Made by a program: the position numbers and the translations under genes. 20,000 nt of DNA, from IMG/VR virus record IMGVR_UViG_3300028377_000002; one strand, 5' to 3'. Every line of letters begins with the position of its first letter. The first letter of the stretch is position 1. Positions 730 to 19,834 of the stretch are shown in pieces. The DNA is from an uncultured virus (IMG/VR IMGVR_UViG_3300028377_000002) (lineage: Duplodnaviria > Heunggongvirae > Uroviricota > Caudoviricetes). The notes beneath the pieces were generated by a model that worked only from the letters and a program-made list of their open reading frames with translations, was not told where the DNA came from and searched no databases.

Positions 730-1149
730 ATGAATTTTAAGAAAAAAGATTTGGAGTTAAAAGAAACTAATAATCACGCTAATGTAGTGCTTATAAACCC
801 AGAAGGGTATATTTGTCTAGTCTCTAGGAAAGACAATCACACTGATTTCGGTTTGATTGGAGGTAAAGTAGAAGATGGTGAGAGTTATGAAGATGCCGCA
901 GTGAGAGAAACTAGGGAAGAAACTGGTTTAGAGATAAGAAACTTAAGGTTAATATTTGCAATGCATAAATCAGGTAATATGGGAAAGACCTTTATTGCTG
1001 ATTATTCAGGAGAAATTAACTATGATAAGGATGCTGAACCACATGTAGTTAAATGGGGTGCAATTCAAGAAGCTATCGATGGTAAATTCGGTTATTGGAA
1101 CGCCTTAGTTAAGGAGTGTCTATTGAGTTTGGGCGTTAATTTTAGATAA
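730..1149 (+). CDS. NUDIX hydrolase
   Basis: Nudix box GGKVEDGESYEDAAVRETREETGL. Confidence 0.92.
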   Translation: MNFKKKDLELKETNNHANVVLINPEGYICLVSRKDNHTDFGLIGGKVEDGESYEDAAVRETREETGLEIRNLRLIFAMHKSGNMGKTFIADYSGEINYDKDAEPHVVKWGAIQEAIDGKFGYWNALVKECLLSLGVNFR

Positions 1150-3716: not shown

Positions 3717-3916
3717 AAACATTACCTAAGACAGCTTCCAACCCTGATGCTATCATAGTCAAGTTAGCTGATAGAATTGCCAACATTGAACATGGTGGTA
3801 AAGTTGAAATGTATGCTAAAGAGTATGATGAATTTAAAGGCGCTTTACAGTTGACCTCACCATCATCCGCAGCAGATATGTGGAAATACTTAGATAATTT
3901 ATTACTAATTAAATGA
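3713..3916 (+). pseudogene. C-terminal remnant of a RelA/SpoT-type HD-domain hydrolase (SAH/Mesh1-like)
   Basis: AIIVKLADRIAN motif begins about 13 residues after the start; the HD/EDT catalytic half is missing. Confidence 0.65.
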
Positions 3917-4623
3917 ATAAAGAAGATTTAATACATTTACGTGATACGCTTAAAGTAAGTGGTGAATTAAAAGGTAAAGATAAAGAAACTATGAGTAAAG
4001 TCTTAAAAAAAGAGATGAGTGAACACATCTTAAAAGAACTTAATATCGAAGGGGAAGTACTAGCTATTTTCCCTTACGGTTCTCGTGTGTATGGAACAGC
4101 CACTAAAGATTCAGACCGTGATTACATCATAGTCATGAAAAGTGCTATGTTGGATAATGGAGCATTCAGAAATAATGCAATATCTAATGAAGACTATTCA
4201 ATTCAAGGTGTAGTTTATTCCAGAGGTGGTTTTATAGATGCCATTAATAGATACGAGATAGGTGCGCTAGAGTGTATATCTTTACCTGAAGATAAAGTTA
4301 TTCTTAAGAAATGGCCATTTAAGGTTACTAAATGGAACGAGAAGGAAATGATTAAAGCTATCATAAGAAAAGCATCGGACAGTTTACATTATTCAAAAAT
4401 GGCATCTAAGAACGGTGATAACGAACGTGCTATTAAAAGTATGTATCACTCTCTTAGAATATTAAGCTTTGGTCTACAATTAAAAGAATATAAGAAAATA
4501 GTAGACTTTAAAGCGTCAAATGATTTGTATGACATATTTATGCATATAGAGTCAGAAGGTTTTGACACTAGAGATTACTTTGATATGTTTGAGTATTTAT
4601 CTAACATGTTAAAAAATAAATAA
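3913..4623 (+). CDS. Pol-beta superfamily nucleotidyltransferase
   Basis: PYGSRVYGTATKDSDRDY (GS...DxD) motif followed by a helical C-terminal domain. Confidence 0.85.
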   Translation: MNKEDLIHLRDTLKVSGELKGKDKETMSKVLKKEMSEHILKELNIEGEVLAIFPYGSRVYGTATKDSDRDYIIVMKSAMLDNGAFRNNAISNEDYSIQGVVYSRGGFIDAINRYEIGALECISLPEDKVILKKWPFKVTKWNEKEMIKAIIRKASDSLHYSKMASKNGDNERAIKSMYHSLRILSFGLQLKEYKKIVDFKASNDLYDIFMHIESEGFDTRDYFDMFEYLSNMLKNK

Positions 4624-4656
4624 AGTTTTTTCATTATTCCCTTGCATATTTAAATA

Positions 4657-4664
4657 TATATTTG
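4657..4664 (+). promoter_or_regulatory. -7 promoter box ahead of the suppressor tRNA / PTH2 unit
   Basis: TATATTTG 13 nt before the tRNA; upstream TTG at 4642 has a non-canonical 12-nt spacer. Confidence 0.55.
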
Positions 4665-4677
4665 CAATGGAATAATT

Positions 4678-4750
4678 GGTCGATTAGCTCAGTTGGAAGA
4701 GCGGGAGATTCTAAACCTCTTAGTCATCGGTTCGAACCCGATATCGACCA
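4678..4750 (+). tRNA. amber suppressor tRNA, anticodon CTA (4711-4713)
   Basis: Acceptor GGTCGAT/ATCGACC, A73; D-arm GCTC/GAGC; anticodon stem GGAGA/CCTCT (G-U and A.C ends) with loop TT-CTA-AA; T-arm ATCGG-TTCGAAC-CCGAT; 73 nt, no encoded CCA. Confidence 0.88.
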
Positions 4751-4785
4751 CTAAATAAAAATGTGTAACTTAAAAACAAAAAAAA

Positions 4786-5154
4786 ATGAAAGACACTTAG
4801 ATTGCAAGGCAAGAACCTCAGAAACTCTACGTAGTGGGGAGAAAAGATTTACCACTATCCTATCAGGCTGTCCAAATGGGTCACGCCGCAATAGACTTCC
4901 AACATAAACACTCAAGTATAGCAAAAGACTGGAATCAAAATTCAAACTATTTAGTATTCCTCAGCGCTAAAGATGAGAAACATTTAGAAGTCTTACTTCA
5001 AAAAGCAGAGTTCAAGGGTCTCAAAACAACTTCTTTTAGAGAACCTGACATCAACAACGAACTTACAGCTATTACAATAGAACCATCTAAAATTACTAAA
5101 AAGTTAGTTTCTAACTTACCGTTATTTGGAAAAAAGGTATCGTCATGTGTATAA
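4786..5154 (+). CDS. PTH2-family peptidyl-tRNA hydrolase with in-frame TAG at codon 5 (4798-4800)
   Basis: ATG AAA GAC ACT TAG ATT... reads MKDT*IARQEPQKLYVVGRKDLPLSYQAVQMGHAA...FREPDINNELTAITI...LPL; the PTH2 first strand KLYV lies upstream of the ORF-track GTG start (4834). Confidence 0.8.
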
Positions 5155-5408
5155 TTGAACATAACGAAAAGCCAGATAGAGTGATATTTCATTTTAATAA
5201 AGCTCACTTATCCGATTCTGCAATACCTATGTGGGTGTTAAAAAGTAAAGGTAAGACTCATTACGTAAACCATGTTGAGTTCGATTCAGGAATTGGTTTT
5301 AGGACCAAGGAAACTCCAGATTCTAACCATACTAAAGGTAGTATTCAAATAAAAGGTCGTTTAAAGATAACGGAAGAAGATAGTCAAACAATTGGTGAAA
5401 TTTACTAA
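5145..5408 (+). CDS. hypothetical phage protein
   Basis: 87-aa ORF overlapping the PTH2 stop; normal codon usage. Confidence 0.75.
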   Translation: MCIIEHNEKPDRVIFHFNKAHLSDSAIPMWVLKSKGKTHYVNHVEFDSGIGFRTKETPDSNHTKGSIQIKGRLKITEEDSQTIGEIY

Positions 5409-5412
5409 AATA

Positions 5413-5444
5413 TTTGGTTATAACATAAAAACAACTTATATTTG
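5413..5444 (+). promoter_or_regulatory. Bacteroidota-type promoter
   Basis: TTTG(5413-5416)-N20-TATATTTG(5437-5444). Confidence 0.75.
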
Positions 5445-5463
5445 TAAGGTAAAATTATAAAAG

Positions 5464-5994
5464 ATGGAAATATTAATAGTAGAAGCAATAAAAACTTTAC
5501 ACTCAGGTCATAAAAATATCAAGTATTTGGTGGCTAATAATGAAGTTTATGGTTATGATGATGTGAATGACTTGGCTGAGTACGTAGCTGAAGAATGGGG
5601 CAATAGGGATGTAGGTGGTCATAACAATGGTTATTTCTTGGAGTGGAATATCGTAGAAGATGAGGAAGTTAAAACAATTGCTTTAAACGCTGAAGTATCT
5701 AATATAGAAAATAAAATTAAATACCTAAACTTGAATGTTGAAGTATTGAAAAGGTTTGCTACAGAAGAAGGTTTACCAATAACCAATGGTAGTACAACAA
5801 GTTTTCTTTTAAGTAAAGGGTACGAAGAATTAGAATGTCCTAAATGCGAAACTTTGTGTAAACCTGTCAATAAAAAAAGCGACGGTACTATTGTTTACGA
5901 AAACCACAAGTGTATTGTTAATGGTCGTCACGGTGAAGAATTTAGAATCACGAAGAGTTTCAGCATTAATGCTAATGGTGAACTAATAAAATAA
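5464..5994 (+). CDS. hypothetical protein with possible C-terminal zinc ribbon
   Basis: 176-aa ORF after a promoter; CPKC...HKC. Confidence 0.7.
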   Translation: MEILIVEAIKTLHSGHKNIKYLVANNEVYGYDDVNDLAEYVAEEWGNRDVGGHNNGYFLEWNIVEDEEVKTIALNAEVSNIENKIKYLNLNVEVLKRFATEEGLPITNGSTTSFLLSKGYEELECPKCETLCKPVNKKSDGTIVYENHKCIVNGRHGEEFRITKSFSINANGELIK

Positions 5995-6301: not shown

Positions 6302-6373
6302 GCGCAGGTTCCAGAGCGGCTATGGTGTTGCCCCGCAAGGCAATGTAGGGTGGTTCGAATCCATCCCTGTGCT
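6302..6373 (+). tRNA. atypical tRNA or pseudo-tRNA (U73, Gly/Cys-like body) with aberrant anticodon loop
   Basis: Acceptor GCGCAGG/CCTGTGC plus T73; T-arm GGTGG-TTCGAAT-CCATC; anticodon stem GTTGC/GCAAT closes an 8-nt loop CCCGCAAG with no U33. Confidence 0.7.
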
Positions 6374-6389
6374 CTTAAAATTAAATAAA

Positions 6390-6954: not shown

Positions 6955-8376
6955 ATGGAAATTAAAATAATTTTTGATGAAATAGCTAATACTTCTGGTA
7001 ACAACGCTAAGATGGATGTGCTTCGTAAGTATAAAGACAATCAACTACTTCAAAAGGTATTATATTTAATCAAGTCTAAAAGGGTTAAGTTTTTCATTAA
7101 ACAAATACCTGAATATACTCCTTGGGGTTCTAATTCTAATTATTCGCTATCAGAAGCTGTTAATGATTTAAAAGTCCTTAGTAATAGAGAAGAAACAGGT
7201 CAATCGGCTGTAGCCTATCTTAAGCAGACTTTAGAAAATTTATCGACCGATGACGCTTATATCATTGAAAGAATTATTGATAAAGACCCTAAGATTGGTT
7301 TAGGTAGAACTTTTATTAATAAAGTAATTCCTAATCTTATTGAAAAAACACCATATCAAGGTGCTAAGTCTTTCAGTGAGAAGTTAGCTAGAAAAATTTT
7401 CAAAGATTATGGTTATGCATATAGTGATGTTAAGATGGACGGCCGTTATGCTAATGCCATTATTCAATCTGGTCAAGTAGAATTCGAATCAAGACAAGGT
7501 GAAACAACTTACATTCCAGTAGATTCTCTATTAATTAGAGAGTTATCTAAATTTGGTGATGGTGTACTAAATGGTGAATTAACTATAATTAATGATGATG
7601 GTTCGACAATGGATAGGTACACGTCTAACGGTATTATAGCTTCGATAGTAGATATCGAGGGTTGTGGTAAAATGGGTGATAGAAATGATGAAGATACCTC
7701 TAAAAAGTTATCTGCGTTCAGAAAGAAGCATGGTGATTTTAAAGAAGCTGTCGACAAAATAAGATATACAGTGTGGGATTCAATCACATTAGAAGACTAC
7801 TTCAATAAGAAGTCAGATATTGAGTATAGAAAGCGTTTAGATTATCTATTCAAAAAGACACCTATATTAGAATGCACTAGAGTTGCAATGGTAGAACGTC
7901 TTAAGGTTTATTCATATGAAGAGGCTATGACTCACTTCCAAAATATTTTGTTGAGAGGTGAAGAGGGTACTATATTGAAAGCACCTTTGGCCACTTGGAA
8001 AGATGGTAAACCAAATACTCAAATTAAGCTAAAAATTGAAGTTAATTTAGATTTGAAAGTGATTGGATTTGAGTACGGAAATAAAGGTACTAAAAATGAA
8101 AATGTGTATAGTACAATAAATCTTGAATCGTCTTGCGGAAATCTGCGCACTAATGCGTCTGGGATGAAAGAAGGTATGATGAAAGAAATAACAGAACGTG
8201 CTGATGAATTACTTGGTACTGTGGTTGAGATTCGGTGTTGTGGTTTATCACAAAGTAGTGATGGGGATTATTCTACGCTCCACCCATCAGTGGTTGAATT
8301 AAGAGACGATAAAACCGAAGCTAATTCATTAGCTGAATGTATTAAAATAAGTAATGCTGCTATGGGATTATCTTAA
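6955..8376 (+). CDS. ATP-dependent DNA ligase (phage type)
   Basis: KMDGRY motif I, LNGEL, EGTILK, KLK motifs and C-terminal OB fold ending in LRDDK. Confidence 0.92.
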   Translation: MEIKIIFDEIANTSGNNAKMDVLRKYKDNQLLQKVLYLIKSKRVKFFIKQIPEYTPWGSNSNYSLSEAVNDLKVLSNREETGQSAVAYLKQTLENLSTDDAYIIERIIDKDPKIGLGRTFINKVIPNLIEKTPYQGAKSFSEKLARKIFKDYGYAYSDVKMDGRYANAIIQSGQVEFESRQGETTYIPVDSLLIRELSKFGDGVLNGELTIINDDGSTMDRYTSNGIIASIVDIEGCGKMGDRNDEDTSKKLSAFRKKHGDFKEAVDKIRYTVWDSITLEDYFNKKSDIEYRKRLDYLFKKTPILECTRVAMVERLKVYSYEEAMTHFQNILLRGEEGTILKAPLATWKDGKPNTQIKLKIEVNLDLKVIGFEYGNKGTKNENVYSTINLESSCGNLRTNASGMKEGMMKEITERADELLGTVVEIRCCGLSQSSDGDYSTLHPSVVELRDDKTEANSLAECIKISNAAMGLS

Positions 8377-8615: not shown

Positions 8616-9641
8616 ATGAAAAAATTTAGTAAGTTCCCAAAAATTGGGCAATTTAGACAAACAGTGAAAGAAGCTAAACTAAGAAACTCTTACATTGGTA
8701 AGGATGATGATGGTGAACCTATCTTTGACAAAACAAAGGCAACACCAGTAATCAACTTCAAGGGTACGGTAAAGTTACACGGTACAAACGCAGGTGTAGG
8801 TCATACCCCTGAAGATGGTATCTGGGCGCAATCTAGAAATAACATTATTACTGTAGATAACGATAATGCTGGGTTCGCCAAATTCGTTCATAGTAATGAA
8901 GAAACTTTCATTGAATTAATGAATGAGATTAGAGTAGAGAACTCAAAAATAGGCGTTAAAGATGCGGTTTACATTTTTGGTGAATGGGTAGGTAAATCAA
9001 TCCAAAAAGGTGTTGCTATTTCTCAGTTAGAAAAAAGCTTCTTCATTTTTGATGTTAAGGTGGTGCCAGAAGATGAGTCTGAACCATACCACTTAGACTC
9101 ACATTACCTAAAATCCAAAGATAACAAAATCTTTAACATTGAAGACTTTGAAACTTATGAGATGGAAATCGATTTTGAGCAACCTGAGAGCGCTCAAAAC
9201 AAATTAGGTGAGCTAACCATGCAAGTTGAAGAAAAGTGTCCTGTGGCCAAAGAATTTGGCTTTGAAGGTGTAGGTGAGGGTATTGTATGGTCAGGTAAGT
9301 TAGGAAATCACAATCTACTGTTTAAAGTGAAGGGTGAGAAGCATAGTGTTTCTAAAGTAAAAACCTTAGCTAAGGTAGATACGGAAAAACTTAACTCTAT
9401 CAATGAGTTTGTTGATTATGCCATAACAGAAAACAGATTCAACCAAGCATTAGGTGTGGTCTTTCCAGATGGTAATATTGATATCAAAAAATTAGGTGAT
9501 ACAATCAAGTGGGTTGTTAGCGATGTACTAGCTGAAGAAAGCGATGTACTAAAAGATAATAATCTTGAACCTAAAGATATCGGTAAATACGTAGCTGCAA
9601 AGGTTAAAAAAATGTTCTTTGCGGAGTATAATAAATTCTAA
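8616..9641 (+). CDS. Rnl2-family RNA ligase
   Basis: KLHGTNAG motif I, QSRN, FGEW, FDVK, EGIVW, FKVK. Confidence 0.88.
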   Translation: MKKFSKFPKIGQFRQTVKEAKLRNSYIGKDDDGEPIFDKTKATPVINFKGTVKLHGTNAGVGHTPEDGIWAQSRNNIITVDNDNAGFAKFVHSNEETFIELMNEIRVENSKIGVKDAVYIFGEWVGKSIQKGVAISQLEKSFFIFDVKVVPEDESEPYHLDSHYLKSKDNKIFNIEDFETYEMEIDFEQPESAQNKLGELTMQVEEKCPVAKEFGFEGVGEGIVWSGKLGNHNLLFKVKGEKHSVSKVKTLAKVDTEKLNSINEFVDYAITENRFNQALGVVFPDGNIDIKKLGDTIKWVVSDVLAEESDVLKDNNLEPKDIGKYVAAKVKKMFFAEYNKF

Positions 9642-19745: not shown

Positions 19746-19830
19746 ACCCCTATAGCTCAGTGGTAAGAGCACTTCCTTTACACGGAAGAGGCGAATAGTA
19801 TTAACGGGAGTTCGATTCTCTCTGGGGGTA
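19746..19830 (+). tRNA. tRNA-Val(TAC) with unusually long (17-nt) variable region
   Basis: ACCCCTA/TGGGGGT plus A73; CTTCC-TTTACAC-GGAAG; variable region AGGCGAATAGTATTAAC; GGGAG-TTCGATT-CTCTC. Confidence 0.85.
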
Positions 19831-19834
19831 CAAT

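What the first reader, a model, noticed from the sequence alone, without database searches (positions are those of the whole stretch)
4657..5154. Amber-suppressor tRNA directly upstream of a peptidyl-tRNA hydrolase that needs TAG readthrough
Seen: one promoter box (4657-4664) precedes a well-folded tRNA with CTA anticodon (4678-4750). 35 nt later an A-rich start reads ATG AAA GAC ACT TAG ATT..., in frame with a PTH2 gene. The conserved first strand (KLYVVGRKDL) begins between the TAG and the only alternative start (GTG 4834), so full-length enzyme requires decoding TAG at codon 5. None of the ~29 credible genes here ends in TAG and the long genes have no internal TAG, so this is not genome-wide code-15 recoding. 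Known: UAG is read only by RF1, and PTH recycles dropped-off peptidyl-tRNA. Inference: a gene-specific recoding switch in which suppressor tRNA competes with RF1, so the hydrolase is made when termination is impaired or when the phage tRNA is charged. It is conceptually like RF2 autoregulation but uses a dedicated tRNA. The charged amino acid is unknown (U35/A73 would fit Lys; Gln or Tyr are possible).
Basis: partly seen in the sequence, partly recalled or inferred. Interest (0 to 1): 0.92.

Follow-up and report, generated by a model that had tools for sequence, protein, structure and literature searches.

The report
Suppressor tRNA gates phage PTH2 translation
A phage carries a stop-codon-reading tRNA next to a peptidyl-tRNA hydrolase gene that has a matching stop codon a few codons after its start, and this pairing recurs in many unrelated phages, so the enzyme can probably only be made when that tRNA works.

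Summary
A canonical tRNA with anticodon CUA lies at 4678-4751. It is followed 34-35 nt later by ATG AAA GAC ACT TAG ATT, in frame with a PTH2-fold gene ending at 5154. The TAG is unchanged in contigs of four further runs.

The pairing is not peculiar to this window. Of 62 distinct homologues from viral and metagenome contigs, 49 have ATG, 0-6 codons, a stop, and no canonical start before the first beta-strand. Five more have an early TAG plus a possible alternative start.

The stop covaries with the linked suppressor tRNA. TAG goes with tRNA-CUA in all 38 such loci where ARAGORN called a suppressor, TAA with tRNA-UUA (2) and TGA with tRNA-UCA (1). No mismatched pair was seen. The base after the stop is a purine in 49 of 49.

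Cultured phages show the pattern too: Tenacibaculum pT24, Serratia BF, Yersinia fHe-Yen9-03 and cluster C mycobacteriophages. Their records leave the gene unannotated or start it just after the TAG.

Four whole relatives use TAG as an ordinary stop. This is therefore gene-specific, tRNA-dependent readthrough, not code 15.

Why the hydrolase is gated is inference. I found no description of this in print.

The parts
4657..4664 (+). TATATTTG box, a possible promoter element 13 nt before the tRNA
   Evidence: Sequence. The same octamer lies 21-29 nt before the tRNA and before the ORFs starting at 5464 and 6955. TANNTTTG as a class is not enriched. The resemblance to a Bacteroidota -7 box is recalled, not tested.
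4678..4751 (+). tRNA with anticodon CUA (amber suppressor type): canonical cloverleaf, A73, no encoded CCA
   Evidence: ARAGORN. Rfam RF00005 at 62.1 bits. Fold. Unchanged in contigs of 4 of 4 runs.
4752..4785 (+). A-rich spacer between the tRNA and the start codon; the length of its A-run varies among strains
   Evidence: 7 or 8 A in L001-L006. (one A put in behind 4777 in run X8).
4786..4797 (+). Leader codons ATG AAA GAC ACT (MKDT)
   Evidence: The same MKDT leader occurs in 12 of 49 strict homologues.
4798..4800 (+). In-frame TAG at codon 5, followed by A (ATT)
   Evidence: An early stop is conserved in 49 (strict) plus 5 (possible alternative start) of 62 homologues. The +4 base is a purine in 49 of 49.
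4801..5154 (+). Body of the PTH2-fold hydrolase gene, with its stop TAA at 5152-5154
   Evidence: Pfam PF01981. AlphaFold pLDDT 89.5. Foldseek hits to archaeal and human Pth2 at TM 0.69-0.77.
4834..4836 (+). GTG, the only canonical start after the TAG; it lies inside beta-strand 1
   Evidence: 49 of 62 homologues have no canonical start between the stop and the domain.

Best explanation
The tRNA-CUA and the PTH2-like gene form one module, probably one transcript. Ribosomes start at ATG 4786 and meet UAG at codon 5. They go on into the hydrolase only if the phage's own charged suppressor tRNA decodes that UAG. Otherwise a four-residue peptide is released or drops off, and no enzyme is made.

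Hydrolase output is thereby tied to the presence and activity of the suppressor tRNA. It works as an AND-gate, or a dose coupling, on a gene-specific stop codon in a phage that otherwise keeps the standard code.

Shown here: the anatomy, the conservation of the early stop, the covariation of stop and anticodon, the suppression-friendly context, the standard-code background in whole relatives, and the PTH2 fold.

Inferred: that the tRNA is charged and reads the stop. Also inferred is the purpose, which I take to be supplying peptidyl-tRNA recycling capacity in step with stop-codon suppression, since suppression should raise readthrough, stalling and drop-off. The position right after the start would make the 'off' state cheap, and it puts the inserted residue in a disordered N-terminal tail.
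For: (1) Anatomy. The tRNA-CUA lies 34-35 nt before the ATG. TAG is codon 5, and the only later canonical start cuts beta-strand 1.

(2) Conservation. I put 86 loci into the survey. Four lacked the motif I used as anchor and one was cut at its 5' end, which left 81 analysed and 62 distinct proteins. Of these, 49 have ATG, 0-6 further codons, a stop, and no ATG/GTG/TTG before the domain. Five more have an early TAG with a possible alternative start. Eight start conventionally. Under a looser test the control gives 13 of 344 other long frames.

(3) Covariation. Among the 49 strict cases the stop is TAG in 46, TAA in 2 and TGA in 1. ARAGORN finds a cognate suppressor in the fetched locus in 39 of 49: CTA with TAG, TTA with TAA in L123 and L025, and TCA with TGA in L119. 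It finds a non-cognate suppressor in 0. Every suppressor is on the gene's strand, from 489 nt upstream to 2,562 nt downstream of the stop in the strict cases. On the tree the TGA lineage is sister to a TAG sequence (support 99/89). The TAA lineage is nested in a TAG clade (support 99/97).

(4) Context. The base after the stop is a purine in 49 of 49 (A 40, G 9), while the loci are 56% purine. The next codon encodes Ile or Val in 44 of 49. A purine after UAG favouring suppression is recalled (Bossi 1983).

(5) Standard code around it. TAG ends 35/406, 43/439, 17/454 and 31/261 ORFs of 100 aa or more in G001, G002, Serratia BF and pT24. In G001, reading TAG through adds no more ORF length than reading TGA through. 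Terminase frames are open in G001-G004 and in three of the four named phage records searched; Catera gave no match to that family. L119 uses TAG as a stop in 5 of 13 plus-strand ORFs. L123 uses TAA as its main stop, and its PTH2 ends in TAA TAA.

(6) pT24. ARAGORN finds only 3 tRNAs in this phage. One is the CUA tRNA, and the PTH2 frame is the only one in the genome with the early-TAG pattern.

(7) The tail tolerates any residue. Residues 1-12 are low-confidence and unstructured in the model, and leader sequences vary freely.

(8) The TAG is present in 4 of 4 further runs.
Against: No experiment here shows charging of the tRNA, readthrough, or the protein's N-terminus.

In two complete 360-kb relatives that have the early TAG (G001, G002), ARAGORN finds no suppressor tRNA. 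A hand scan found only atypical candidates upstream of the gene. G002 has a 66-nt tRNA-like gene with a reduced D-arm and a CUCUAAA loop, 25 nt before the ATG. In G001 the loop can be read as UCU or as CUA.

Seven further strict cases have no suppressor in the fetched DNA, but those loci are only 1.2-3.5 kb.

In cluster C mycobacteriophages a GTG follows the TAG directly and is the annotated start. There the enzyme may not need readthrough. Catera's record calls the neighbouring tRNA tRNA-Arg.

One clade of 8 homologues starts conventionally. Four of them have no in-frame stop at all, although 7 of the 8 keep a tRNA-CUA nearby.

The family lacks the Gly-Lys loop of archaeal Pth2, and its D-A-G motif aligns to R-E-P-D. 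Hydrolase activity and substrate are therefore unproven.

The functional rationale (dose coupling) is inference only.
Confidence: 0.72

Rival explanations
1. The phage reads TAG as a sense codon genome-wide (code 15). On this reading PTH2 is just one of many recoded genes, and the rest lie outside this 20-kb window, for example in late genes.
For: A suppressor tRNA is present. None of 27 ORFs in the window ends in TAG. Some homologous loci have further in-frame TAGs: inside PTH2 in L020, L022, L023, L134 and LR756501, and in neighbouring ORFs. Code-15 phages with suppressor tRNAs are well known (listings and passages).
Against: No other in-frame TAG occurs in the window. At the 8.6% TAG-stop share of the closest whole relative, 0 of 27 is expected by chance about 9% of the time (my arithmetic).

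G001, which shares the MKDT-TAG-ATT leader, and G002, Serratia BF and pT24 all use TAG as a stop. In G001 there is no gain from reading TAG over reading TGA.

The same device exists with TAA in a genome whose main stop is TAA, and with TGA in a genome that still ends one ORF with TGA and shows no interrupted ORFs. Code 15 also does not explain why the stop sits at codons 2-8 in 49 of 62 homologues.
Confidence: 0.1
2. The ATG-X-X-X-TAG is a tiny upstream ORF (a start-stop or minigene). PTH2 is then made by reinitiation at the next codon (ATT) or at GTG 4834, or by readthrough with host near-cognate tRNAs when RF1 is limiting. The phage tRNA is not needed.
For: ATT or ATA follows the stop in 37 of 49 cases. 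In Catera and ScoobyDoobyDoo a GTG follows directly, and in L126 and L139 an ATG does. ARAGORN finds no suppressor in G001 or G002. That very short ORFs terminate poorly and promote peptidyl-tRNA drop-off is recalled (lambda bar minigenes).
Against: In 12 of 49 cases the next codon is GTA, GTT, AAC, AAT, AGT, GGC or GGT, none of which I take to be a usable start codon (codon roles recalled).

The exact match of stop type to the linked suppressor's anticodon, with 0 mismatches, has no explanation under reinitiation. Ile or Val in 44 of 49 looks like protein-level conservation of a translated codon. GTG 4834 would delete beta-strand 1 and is not conserved.
Confidence: 0.1
3. The gene is a decaying pseudogene, or the TAG is an assembly error.
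For: One relative (L025) also carries a frameshift in mid-gene.
Against: The TAG is identical in seven contigs and in 4 of 4 further runs. The body is intact and conserved, with 15 invariant columns in 17 sequences. The early stop is kept across 49 distinct sequences while the leaders differ.
Confidence: 0.02

Closest known systems
Stop-codon reassignment in phages (code 15, TAG read as Gln, and TGA recoding) with phage-encoded suppressor tRNAs. Papers seen: Borges et al. preprint 10.1101/2021.08.26.457843 (listing and start of abstract only); PMC9523058 (listing and start of abstract only); PMC13037316 (passages).
   Same: A phage-encoded suppressor tRNA reads an in-frame stop codon. One proposed role is to lock translation until the tRNA is present.
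   Different: Here a single gene carries the stop, always within its first few codons, in genomes that still terminate genes with that same codon. All three stop codons are used, each with its cognate tRNA. In the full-text search, the Borges preprint holds neither 'peptidyl-tRNA hydrolase' nor 'PTH2', and PMC13037316 holds no 'hydrolase'.
PTH2 genes of jumbo phages and of cluster C mycobacteriophage tRNA arrays (PMC7824862 and PMC5966550, passages read)
   Same: It is the same enzyme family in the same setting, among tRNA genes and beside tmRNA. A role in ribosome rescue has been proposed for it.
   Different: Neither paper links the gene to a suppressor tRNA or notes a stop at its start. 'Suppressor' occurs 0 times in both.
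Orphan suppressor tRNAs of standard-code phages, for example XacN1 (PMC5852040, passages read)
   Same: These are phages with tRNA-CUA genes and a standard code. The XacN1 authors read through 18 amber stops and found no target.
   Different: XacN1's own PTH2 homologue is fused to the C-terminus of ORF364 and has no early stop, so it is not explained by this finding. In pT24, Serratia BF, Yersinia fHe-Yen9-03 and the window's phage, the PTH2 start is a concrete target for the suppressor.
RF2 (prfB) autoregulation by an in-frame UGA (recalled)
   Same: An early in-frame stop in a translation-factor gene turns termination efficiency into a control signal.
   Different: prfB escapes by a +1 frameshift, senses its own product and needs no special tRNA. 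Here the escape is in-frame readthrough by a dedicated tRNA, and the product is not the factor that reads the stop.
Lambda bar minigenes and Pth (recalled)
   Same: A two- to five-codon ORF ending in a stop is the classic source of peptidyl-tRNA drop-off, which is the substrate of peptidyl-tRNA hydrolase.
   Different: bar minigenes are free-standing and toxic when Pth is limiting. Here the mini-ORF is in frame with, and fused to, a hydrolase gene.
Selenocysteine and pyrrolysine decoding (recalled)
   Same: A dedicated tRNA reads a stop codon in particular genes.
   Different: No special amino acid machinery or mRNA element is evident here. The tRNA is a canonical elongator. ARAGORN's label 'Pyl' rests on the anticodon alone.

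Membership tests
tRNA (canonical elongator) | Cloverleaf that scores above Rfam's tRNA gathering score | tested here: met
   RF00005 at 62.1 bits against 29, positions 4678-4750. ARAGORN. MFE cloverleaf.
Nonsense suppressor tRNA | Anticodon complementary to a stop codon, in a 7-nt loop with U33 and a purine at 37 | tested here: met
   The loop reads UUCUAAA with anticodon CUA.
Nonsense suppressor tRNA | Is aminoacylated and inserts a residue at the stop codon in vivo | not testable with these tools
   The support is indirect only: covariation of stop and anticodon, and the +4 purine.
tRNA-Pyl | Atypical tRNA-Pyl architecture (small D-loop, short variable loop, no GG or T-psi-C motifs; recalled) together with pylS and pylBCD genes | tested here: not met
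   The D-loop is AGUUGGAA with GG, the variable loop has 5 nt, and the T-loop is UUCGAAC. No Pfam match among 22 window proteins suggests pyl genes.
PTH2 (PF01981) peptidyl-tRNA hydrolase | Sequence match above the curated cut-off | tested here: met
   38.6 bits against 23, E=1.4e-9, profile positions 2-109 of 115. The profile hits solved Pth2 chains at E=1.7e-9 to 6e-4.
PTH2 (PF01981) peptidyl-tRNA hydrolase | Pth2 fold | tested here: met
   AlphaFold pLDDT 89.5. Foldseek finds 3erj, 2zv3, 1q7s, 1wn2 and 1xty at E=8.5e-8 to 1.4e-5, TM 0.69-0.77.
PTH2 (PF01981) peptidyl-tRNA hydrolase | Catalytic residues of archaeal Pth2 (a Lys in the G-K loop and the Asp of the D-A-G motif; recalled) | tested here: inconclusive
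   The two-residue G-K stretch is a gap in the phage family. D-A-G aligns to E-P-D within the invariant FREPDINN. R19, D21, Q30 and H33 are invariant.
Genome-wide code 15 | In-frame TAG in many genes, TAG not used as a stop, and ORFs that lengthen when TAG is read | tested here: not met
   In the window only PTH2 has an in-frame TAG. In G001 reading TAG gains no more than reading TGA. G001, G002, Serratia BF and pT24 end 3.7-12% of ORFs with TAG. The rest of the window's own genome could not be tested.
RF2-type autoregulatory recoding | The gene product itself reads the in-frame stop, and escape is by frameshift | tested here: not met
   The frame is continuous across the TAG, and the product has a Pth2 fold, not a release-factor fold.

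The most novel reading that the evidence does not exclude
A portable two-part translational switch is widespread in large phages of Bacteroidota, Actinomycetota, Pseudomonadota and unknown hosts. It consists of a suppressor tRNA plus a short 'Met, 0-6 codons, stop, purine' leader.

Its ancestral and main client is a Pth2-like ribosome-rescue enzyme. It reports termination and suppression status to the phage. It explains why standard-code phages keep 'orphan' suppressor tRNAs. It may also be the foothold from which genome-wide stop-codon reassignment later spreads, with PTH2 as the first recoded gene.

The same leader in front of two unrelated ORFs (L118:4513, L022:3641) and on a homing-endonuclease fusion (L008:2172) hints that it can move between genes.
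Probability: 0.35. Interest if true: 0.9.

Novelty: new variant of a known kind. Interest (0 to 1): 0.82.

Why it matters
Phage suppressor tRNAs have been read as marks of whole-genome recoding, or left without a known target. This finding gives them a specific, conserved target. It also shows a natural gene-specific readthrough device built from a dedicated tRNA and an early stop codon, and the device exists in amber, ochre and opal versions.

It predicts mis-annotation in public phage records. The gene is missing in Serratia BF and Yersinia fHe-Yen9-03, and it is started after the TAG in cluster C mycobacteriophages.

It offers testable systems in cultured phages: pT24, Serratia BF, and Catera or Bxz1-type phages.

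It bears on how stop-codon reassignment begins. It is also a ready-made orthogonal tRNA and leader pair for controlled expression.

Tried and rejected
- **Whole genome of the window:** none is held. Genome-wide stop use could therefore only be tested in relatives.
- **Sigma-70 promoter and terminator scan of 4400-5600:** 9 promoter-like sites against 5.2 +/- 2.6 expected, and 0 terminators. Uninformative.
- **TANNTTTG as a class:** not enriched.
- **Second viral-contig scan with the alignment:** it returned the same 25 contigs.
- **Genome contigs:** one hit only, on a 6.7-kb MAG contig.
- **Amino acid identity of the suppressor:** BLAST of the suppressors against 109 other phage tRNAs gave only short arm matches and no clear parent isotype. 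The window's best hit is 21 nt to a tRNA-Lys D-arm.
- **Crude regex scan for CUA loops in G001:** mostly noise. It was replaced by a scan anchored on the T-loop.
- **G001 tRNA-like element at c113908-113992:** it carries a GGGG-GAAA-CCCC hairpin. I considered it as a hidden suppressor and could not read a CUA anticodon from it.
- **G001 'tRNA-Leu(tag)':** checked, and it is not a shifted CUA.
- **RNA evidence:** no RNA holder is listed among 24 runs.
- **Earlier notes of this scan:** nothing found by place, by words or by sequence.
- **Lak phages:** Lak-A1 has a conventional start and Lak-B1 is ambiguous. Both have a tRNA-UUA upstream of the gene.
- **Phages without an early stop:** XacN1, RAS14 (both fused forms), RaK2 and Moby.
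Full report
**1. What is in the window**

ARAGORN finds four tRNA-like genes. One, at 4678-4751, has anticodon cta. Rfam's tRNA model matches 4678-4750 at 62.1 bits against a gathering score of 29. The minimum-energy fold is a cloverleaf. Read from the sequence, it has a fully paired 7-bp acceptor stem, a D-loop with GG and the anticodon loop UUCUAAA. Positions 31 and 39 are mismatched (A.C), position 73 is A, and no CCA is encoded. ARAGORN's 'Pyl' label reflects the anticodon only.

The octamer TATATTTG lies 13 nt upstream at 4657-4664. The same octamer lies 21-29 nt before the ORFs starting at 5464 and 6955. The degenerate class TANNTTTG is not enriched, with 36 matches against 31.9 +/- 5.4 expected. 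A promoter role is therefore plausible but unproven.

After an A-rich spacer the sequence reads ATG(4786) AAA GAC ACT TAG(4798-4800) ATT. With TAG read as a residue, this gives a 122-aa frame ending at TAA 5152-5154.

**2. The protein**

The frame matches Pfam PTH2 at E=1.4e-9, above the curated cut-off, over residues 13-108. An AlphaFold model built on 17 homologues has mean pLDDT 89.5. Residues 1-12 are unstructured, and beta-strand 1 covers residues 14-19.

Foldseek returns archaeal Pth2 chains and human Bit1 as its best matches: 3erj, 2zv3, 1q7s, 1wn2 and 1xty, at E=8.5e-8 to 1.4e-5 and TM 0.69-0.77.

In a profile alignment to solved Pth2 chains, the two-residue Gly-Lys stretch of the archaeal enzymes is a gap. 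Their D-A-G motif aligns to E-P-D inside the family's invariant FREPDINN. The fold is Pth2, but the chemistry is not proven.

The only canonical start after the TAG is GTG 4834, which is codon 17. Starting there would remove half of strand 1.

**3. The TAG is real**

Six near-identical viral contigs and a 28.7-kb metagenome contig carry the TAG. So do contigs from 4 of 4 further public runs. In those runs the tRNA and the TAG are unchanged, while nearby positions 4641, 4777, 4886, 4908, 5176 and 5221 vary. No RNA run was listed, so expression is untested.

**4. The pattern is conserved far beyond this phage**

Scans of viral contigs gave 25 loci, metagenome contigs gave 68, and genomes gave 1.

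I dropped the six duplicates seen (L002-L006 and L014), the re-fetched L056-L079, and two C-terminal fragments (L145, L147). That left 86 loci for the survey. Four of these lacked the R-x-D-L anchor I used and one was cut at its 5' end. So 81 were analysed, giving 62 distinct proteins.

| Class | Number of 62 | Notes |
|---|---|---|
| Strict early stop | 49 | An in-frame stop 2-9 codons before the domain, an ATG 1-7 codons before that stop, and no ATG/GTG/TTG in between |
| Early TAG with a possible alternative start | 5 | All TAG |
| Conventional start | 8 | Seven form one clade with L139 (support 100/95); the eighth, L144, lies apart on a long branch |

- Leaders differ: MKDT 12, MK 11, MTH 5, MT 4, MS 4, MKN 3 and others.
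- Including the ATG, leader length is 1-7 codons.
- As a control, 13 of 344 other frames of 100 codons or more in the same loci met a looser version of the test.

Among the eight conventional sequences, three carry a TAG inside the gene (L022, L134, L141). One, L144, has M-L-TAG-I at the start of a longer fusion protein. Four have no in-frame stop. Seven of the eight still have a tRNA-CUA within 2 kb.

**5. Stop codon and suppressor covary**

In the 49 strict cases the stop is TAG in 46, TAA in 2 and TGA in 1.

- ARAGORN finds a suppressor tRNA in the fetched DNA in 39 of the 49, always cognate and never non-cognate.
- The pairs are cta with TAG (36 of the 39), tta with TAA (L123, L025), and tca with TGA (L119).
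- All five ambiguous cases also have cta with TAG, making 41 TAG-cta loci in all.
- Every suppressor lies on the gene's strand, from 489 nt upstream to 2,562 nt downstream of the stop in the strict cases.

On a maximum-likelihood tree the TGA sequence is sister to a TAG sequence (support 99/89). The TAA pair is nested within a TAG clade (support 99/97). The stop therefore changed at least twice, each time in step with the tRNA. The tRNAs of these lineages do not look like anticodon mutants of their neighbours' tRNAs, so the stop seems to follow whichever suppressor the phage carries.

L119 ends 5 of 13 plus-strand ORFs with TAG and one with TGA. L123 uses TAA as its main stop, and its PTH2 ends in TAA TAA. 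These are not reassigned codons.

**6. The ten strict cases without an ARAGORN suppressor**

- **L115:** it has the orthologue of L107's tRNA-CUA (95.9% identical over 73 nt). ARAGORN misfolds it as 'His(atg)'.
- **L081, which is G002:** it has a 66-nt tRNA-like gene with a 7-bp acceptor stem, a T-arm, a reduced D-arm and a CUCUAAA loop. This gene ends 25 nt before the PTH2 ATG.
- **L015, which is G001:** it has a 73-nt tRNA-like gene about 400 nt upstream. Its loop can be read as UCU or as CUA, and the UCU register pairs better.
- **The other seven:** they lie in loci of 1.2-3.5 kb, often cut near the gene.

G001 and G002 therefore weaken the claim that a canonical suppressor is always present, but they do not overturn it.

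**7. Context of the stop**

The base after the stop is A in 40 and G in 9 of 49, while the loci are 56% purine. The next codon is ATT in 34, GTA in 5, ATA in 3 and GTT in 2, so it encodes Ile or Val in 44 of 49.

Purines after UAG favouring suppression is recalled (Bossi 1983). Seven of the nine kinds of next codon (GTA, GTT, AAC, AAT, AGT, GGC, GGT; 12 of 49 cases) are not ones I take to be usable start codons. That argues against reinitiation as the general mechanism.

**8. Not code 15**

In the window, 27 other plus-strand ORFs end in TAA (23) or TGA (4). They hold no in-frame TAG.

No whole genome is held for the window. I therefore read five whole relatives.

| Genome | tRNAs (ARAGORN) | Suppressor found | ORFs of 100 aa or more ending in TAG |
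|---|---|---|---|
| G001 (360 kb; same MKDT-TAG-ATT leader; 50-68% aa identity over NUDIX, ligase and other genes by tblastx) | 48, plus tmRNA | none canonical | 35/406 |
| G002 | 57 | none canonical | 43/439 |
| Serratia phage BF | 29 | tRNA-CUA 3.6 kb downstream of the gene | 17/454 |
| Tenacibaculum phage pT24 | 3 | one of the three is tRNA-CUA | 31/261 |
| Mycobacterium phage Catera | 34, plus tmRNA | tRNA-CUA 250 nt downstream | not meaningful at 65% GC |

- In G001, reading TAG through adds no more ORF length than reading TGA through: 107,096 against 109,747 aa.
- Terminase large-subunit frames are open, without internal stops, in G001-G004 and in three of the four named phage records searched. 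Catera gave no match to that family.
- In pT24, the PTH2 frame is the only one in the genome with the early-TAG pattern.

**9. Cultured and named phages**

tblastn found homologues in 240 phage records with the window's protein and in 59 with a divergent query. I read 14 records.

| Record | Start of the PTH2 gene | Note |
|---|---|---|
| Tenacibaculum pT24 | MK-TAG | The record annotates a tRNA-Sup 2.5 kb upstream |
| Serratia BF | MTH-TAG | No CDS is annotated over the gene |
| Yersinia fHe-Yen9-03 | MSH-TAG | No CDS is annotated over the gene |
| LR756500 | MK-TAG | Huge phage |
| LR756501 | MS-TAG, plus an internal TAG | Huge phage |
| LR756511 | MTH-TAG | Huge phage |
| Catera | ATG-TAG-GTG | The annotated start is the GTG after the TAG |
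| ScoobyDoobyDoo | GTG-TAG-GTG | The annotated start is the GTG after the TAG; a tRNA(cta) is annotated 180 nt downstream |
| XacN1, RAS14 | no early stop | PTH2 is fused to a longer ORF |
| RaK2, Moby, Lak-A1 | no early stop | Conventional start |
| Lak-B1 | ambiguous | |

**10. How it most likely works**

*Shown.* The hydrolase frame is closed by a stop a few codons after its start. A cognate suppressor tRNA gene lies beside it on the same strand. The two covary, and the surrounding genomes keep the standard code.

*Inferred.* The charged suppressor reads the stop, so hydrolase synthesis needs the tRNA and scales with its activity.

- Placing the stop at codons 2-8 keeps the unsuppressed product to a peptide of a few residues.
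- It also puts the inserted residue in a disordered tail, which fits the very varied suppressor scaffolds.
- For the purpose, I favour dose coupling. Suppression should raise readthrough of ordinary stops, which leads to ribosome stalling and peptidyl-tRNA drop-off. A hydrolase made through the same suppression event would then track the load.
- tmRNA genes near the module fit a rescue toolkit: L018, and G001 and Catera.
- An anti-defence role against tRNA-targeting toxins is another possibility (recalled: Pth removes N-acetyl-aminoacyl-tRNA made by GNAT toxins). It would not by itself explain the gate.

**11. What is in print**

I ran four full-text searches:

- 'peptidyl-tRNA hydrolase', 'suppressor tRNA', 'phage', 'stop codon recoding'
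- 'peptidyl-tRNA hydrolase', 'mycobacteriophage', 'tmRNA', 'amber'
- 'PTH2', 'phage', 'in-frame stop codon', 'suppressor tRNA'
- 'peptidyl-tRNA hydrolase', 'phage-encoded', 'defense system', 'tRNA'

None found a paper that links the two.

- PMC7824862 and PMC5966550 (passages read) report PTH2 in jumbo phages and in cluster C tRNA arrays, and do not use the word 'suppressor'.
- PMC5852040 (passages read) reports two tRNA-CUA genes in XacN1 with no identifiable target.
- PMC6102473 (passages read) reports a UCA suppressor and two PTH genes in Atu_ph07. I did not examine that phage.
- PMC13037316 (passages read) treats suppressor tRNAs only as part of alternative codes.
- The Borges preprint was seen as a listing only, and it holds none of the PTH terms.

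Subscription-journal papers and supplementary tables were not searched.

**12. Verdict**

The finding generalises to a conserved module of suppressor tRNA plus early-stop PTH2 in diverse large phages. I call it a new variant of programmed stop-codon readthrough and phage recoding. The regulatory purpose is still open.

Noticed in passing
window 6302-6374 (+); also L001-L006; G001 c126874-126948; G002 c25456-25530: A tRNA-like gene with a 6-nt anticodon loop, which ARAGORN prints as a two-base 'anticodon' gc. The window copy looks tRNA-Cys-like, with loop CCGCAA and a T where the discriminator base should be. It is conserved in all six near-identical contigs. G001 and G002 have analogous genes. 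It scores below Rfam's gathering score.
   Followed up: partly
window 19746-19831 (+); G001 tRNA list: tRNA-Val(UAC) is 86 nt long, with an extra stretch after the anticodon arm. In G001 many isotypes (Thr, Gly, Lys, Gln, Asp, Val, Cys, Met, Ile, Asn, Trp, His) come as one copy of normal length and one copy 10-25 nt longer.
   Followed up: no
L008:2172-2969 (+): A homing-endonuclease-like gene (DUF723, treble-clef zinc finger, PD-(D/E)XK-type matches) sits directly upstream of PTH2. It begins with a duplicate of the PTH2 start, MTH-TAG-I plus about 25 codons. This looks like an endonuclease insertion into the gene.
   Followed up: partly
L118:4513-4950 (+); L022:3641-4033 (+): Two unrelated ORFs without Pfam matches, both next to the tRNA-CUA, start with the same kind of leader (MTH-TAG-I and MS-TAG-V). 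The early-stop leader may therefore serve genes other than PTH2.
   Followed up: partly
64 suppressor tRNAs against 164 other tRNAs from the fetched loci: The base pair that closes the anticodon loop (31-39) is mismatched in 21 of 64 suppressor tRNAs, including the window's A.C. It is mismatched in only 6 of 164 other tRNAs.
   Followed up: no
L030 (Serratia phage BF), L031 (Yersinia phage fHe-Yen9-03), L026 (Catera), L211 (ScoobyDoobyDoo): The public annotations miss or shorten this gene. No CDS lies over the PTH2 frame in BF or fHe-Yen9-03. In the two mycobacteriophages the CDS starts at the GTG just after the TAG. Catera's record labels as tRNA-Arg the tRNA that ARAGORN reads as CUA.
   Followed up: yes
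G002 c67523-67588; G001 c190276-190348 and c113908-113992: These are atypical tRNA-like genes. G002 has a 66-nt form with a reduced D-arm and a CUCUAAA loop, 25 nt before PTH2. G001 has one whose loop reads as UCU or CUA. G001 also has one carrying a GGGG-GAAA-CCCC hairpin in place of a normal anticodon loop.
   Followed up: partly
L123 (PTH2 ends about 3372); L206, L207 (Lak phages): PTH2 genes that sit next to an ochre (UUA) suppressor tRNA end in tandem TAA TAA.
   Followed up: no
window 730-1149, 3913-4623, 6955-8376, 8616-9641: The module sits among genes for NUDIX, a nucleotidyltransferase (weak NTP_transf_2 and Polbeta matches, directly upstream of the tRNA), an ATP-dependent DNA ligase and an RNA ligase. 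This setting suggests RNA repair or tRNA maturation. The tRNA encodes no CCA.
   Followed up: no
window 4770-4785; L001-L006: The A-run before the ATG varies by one base among strains. The shorter form puts an upstream ATG (4761) in frame with PTH2.
   Followed up: no
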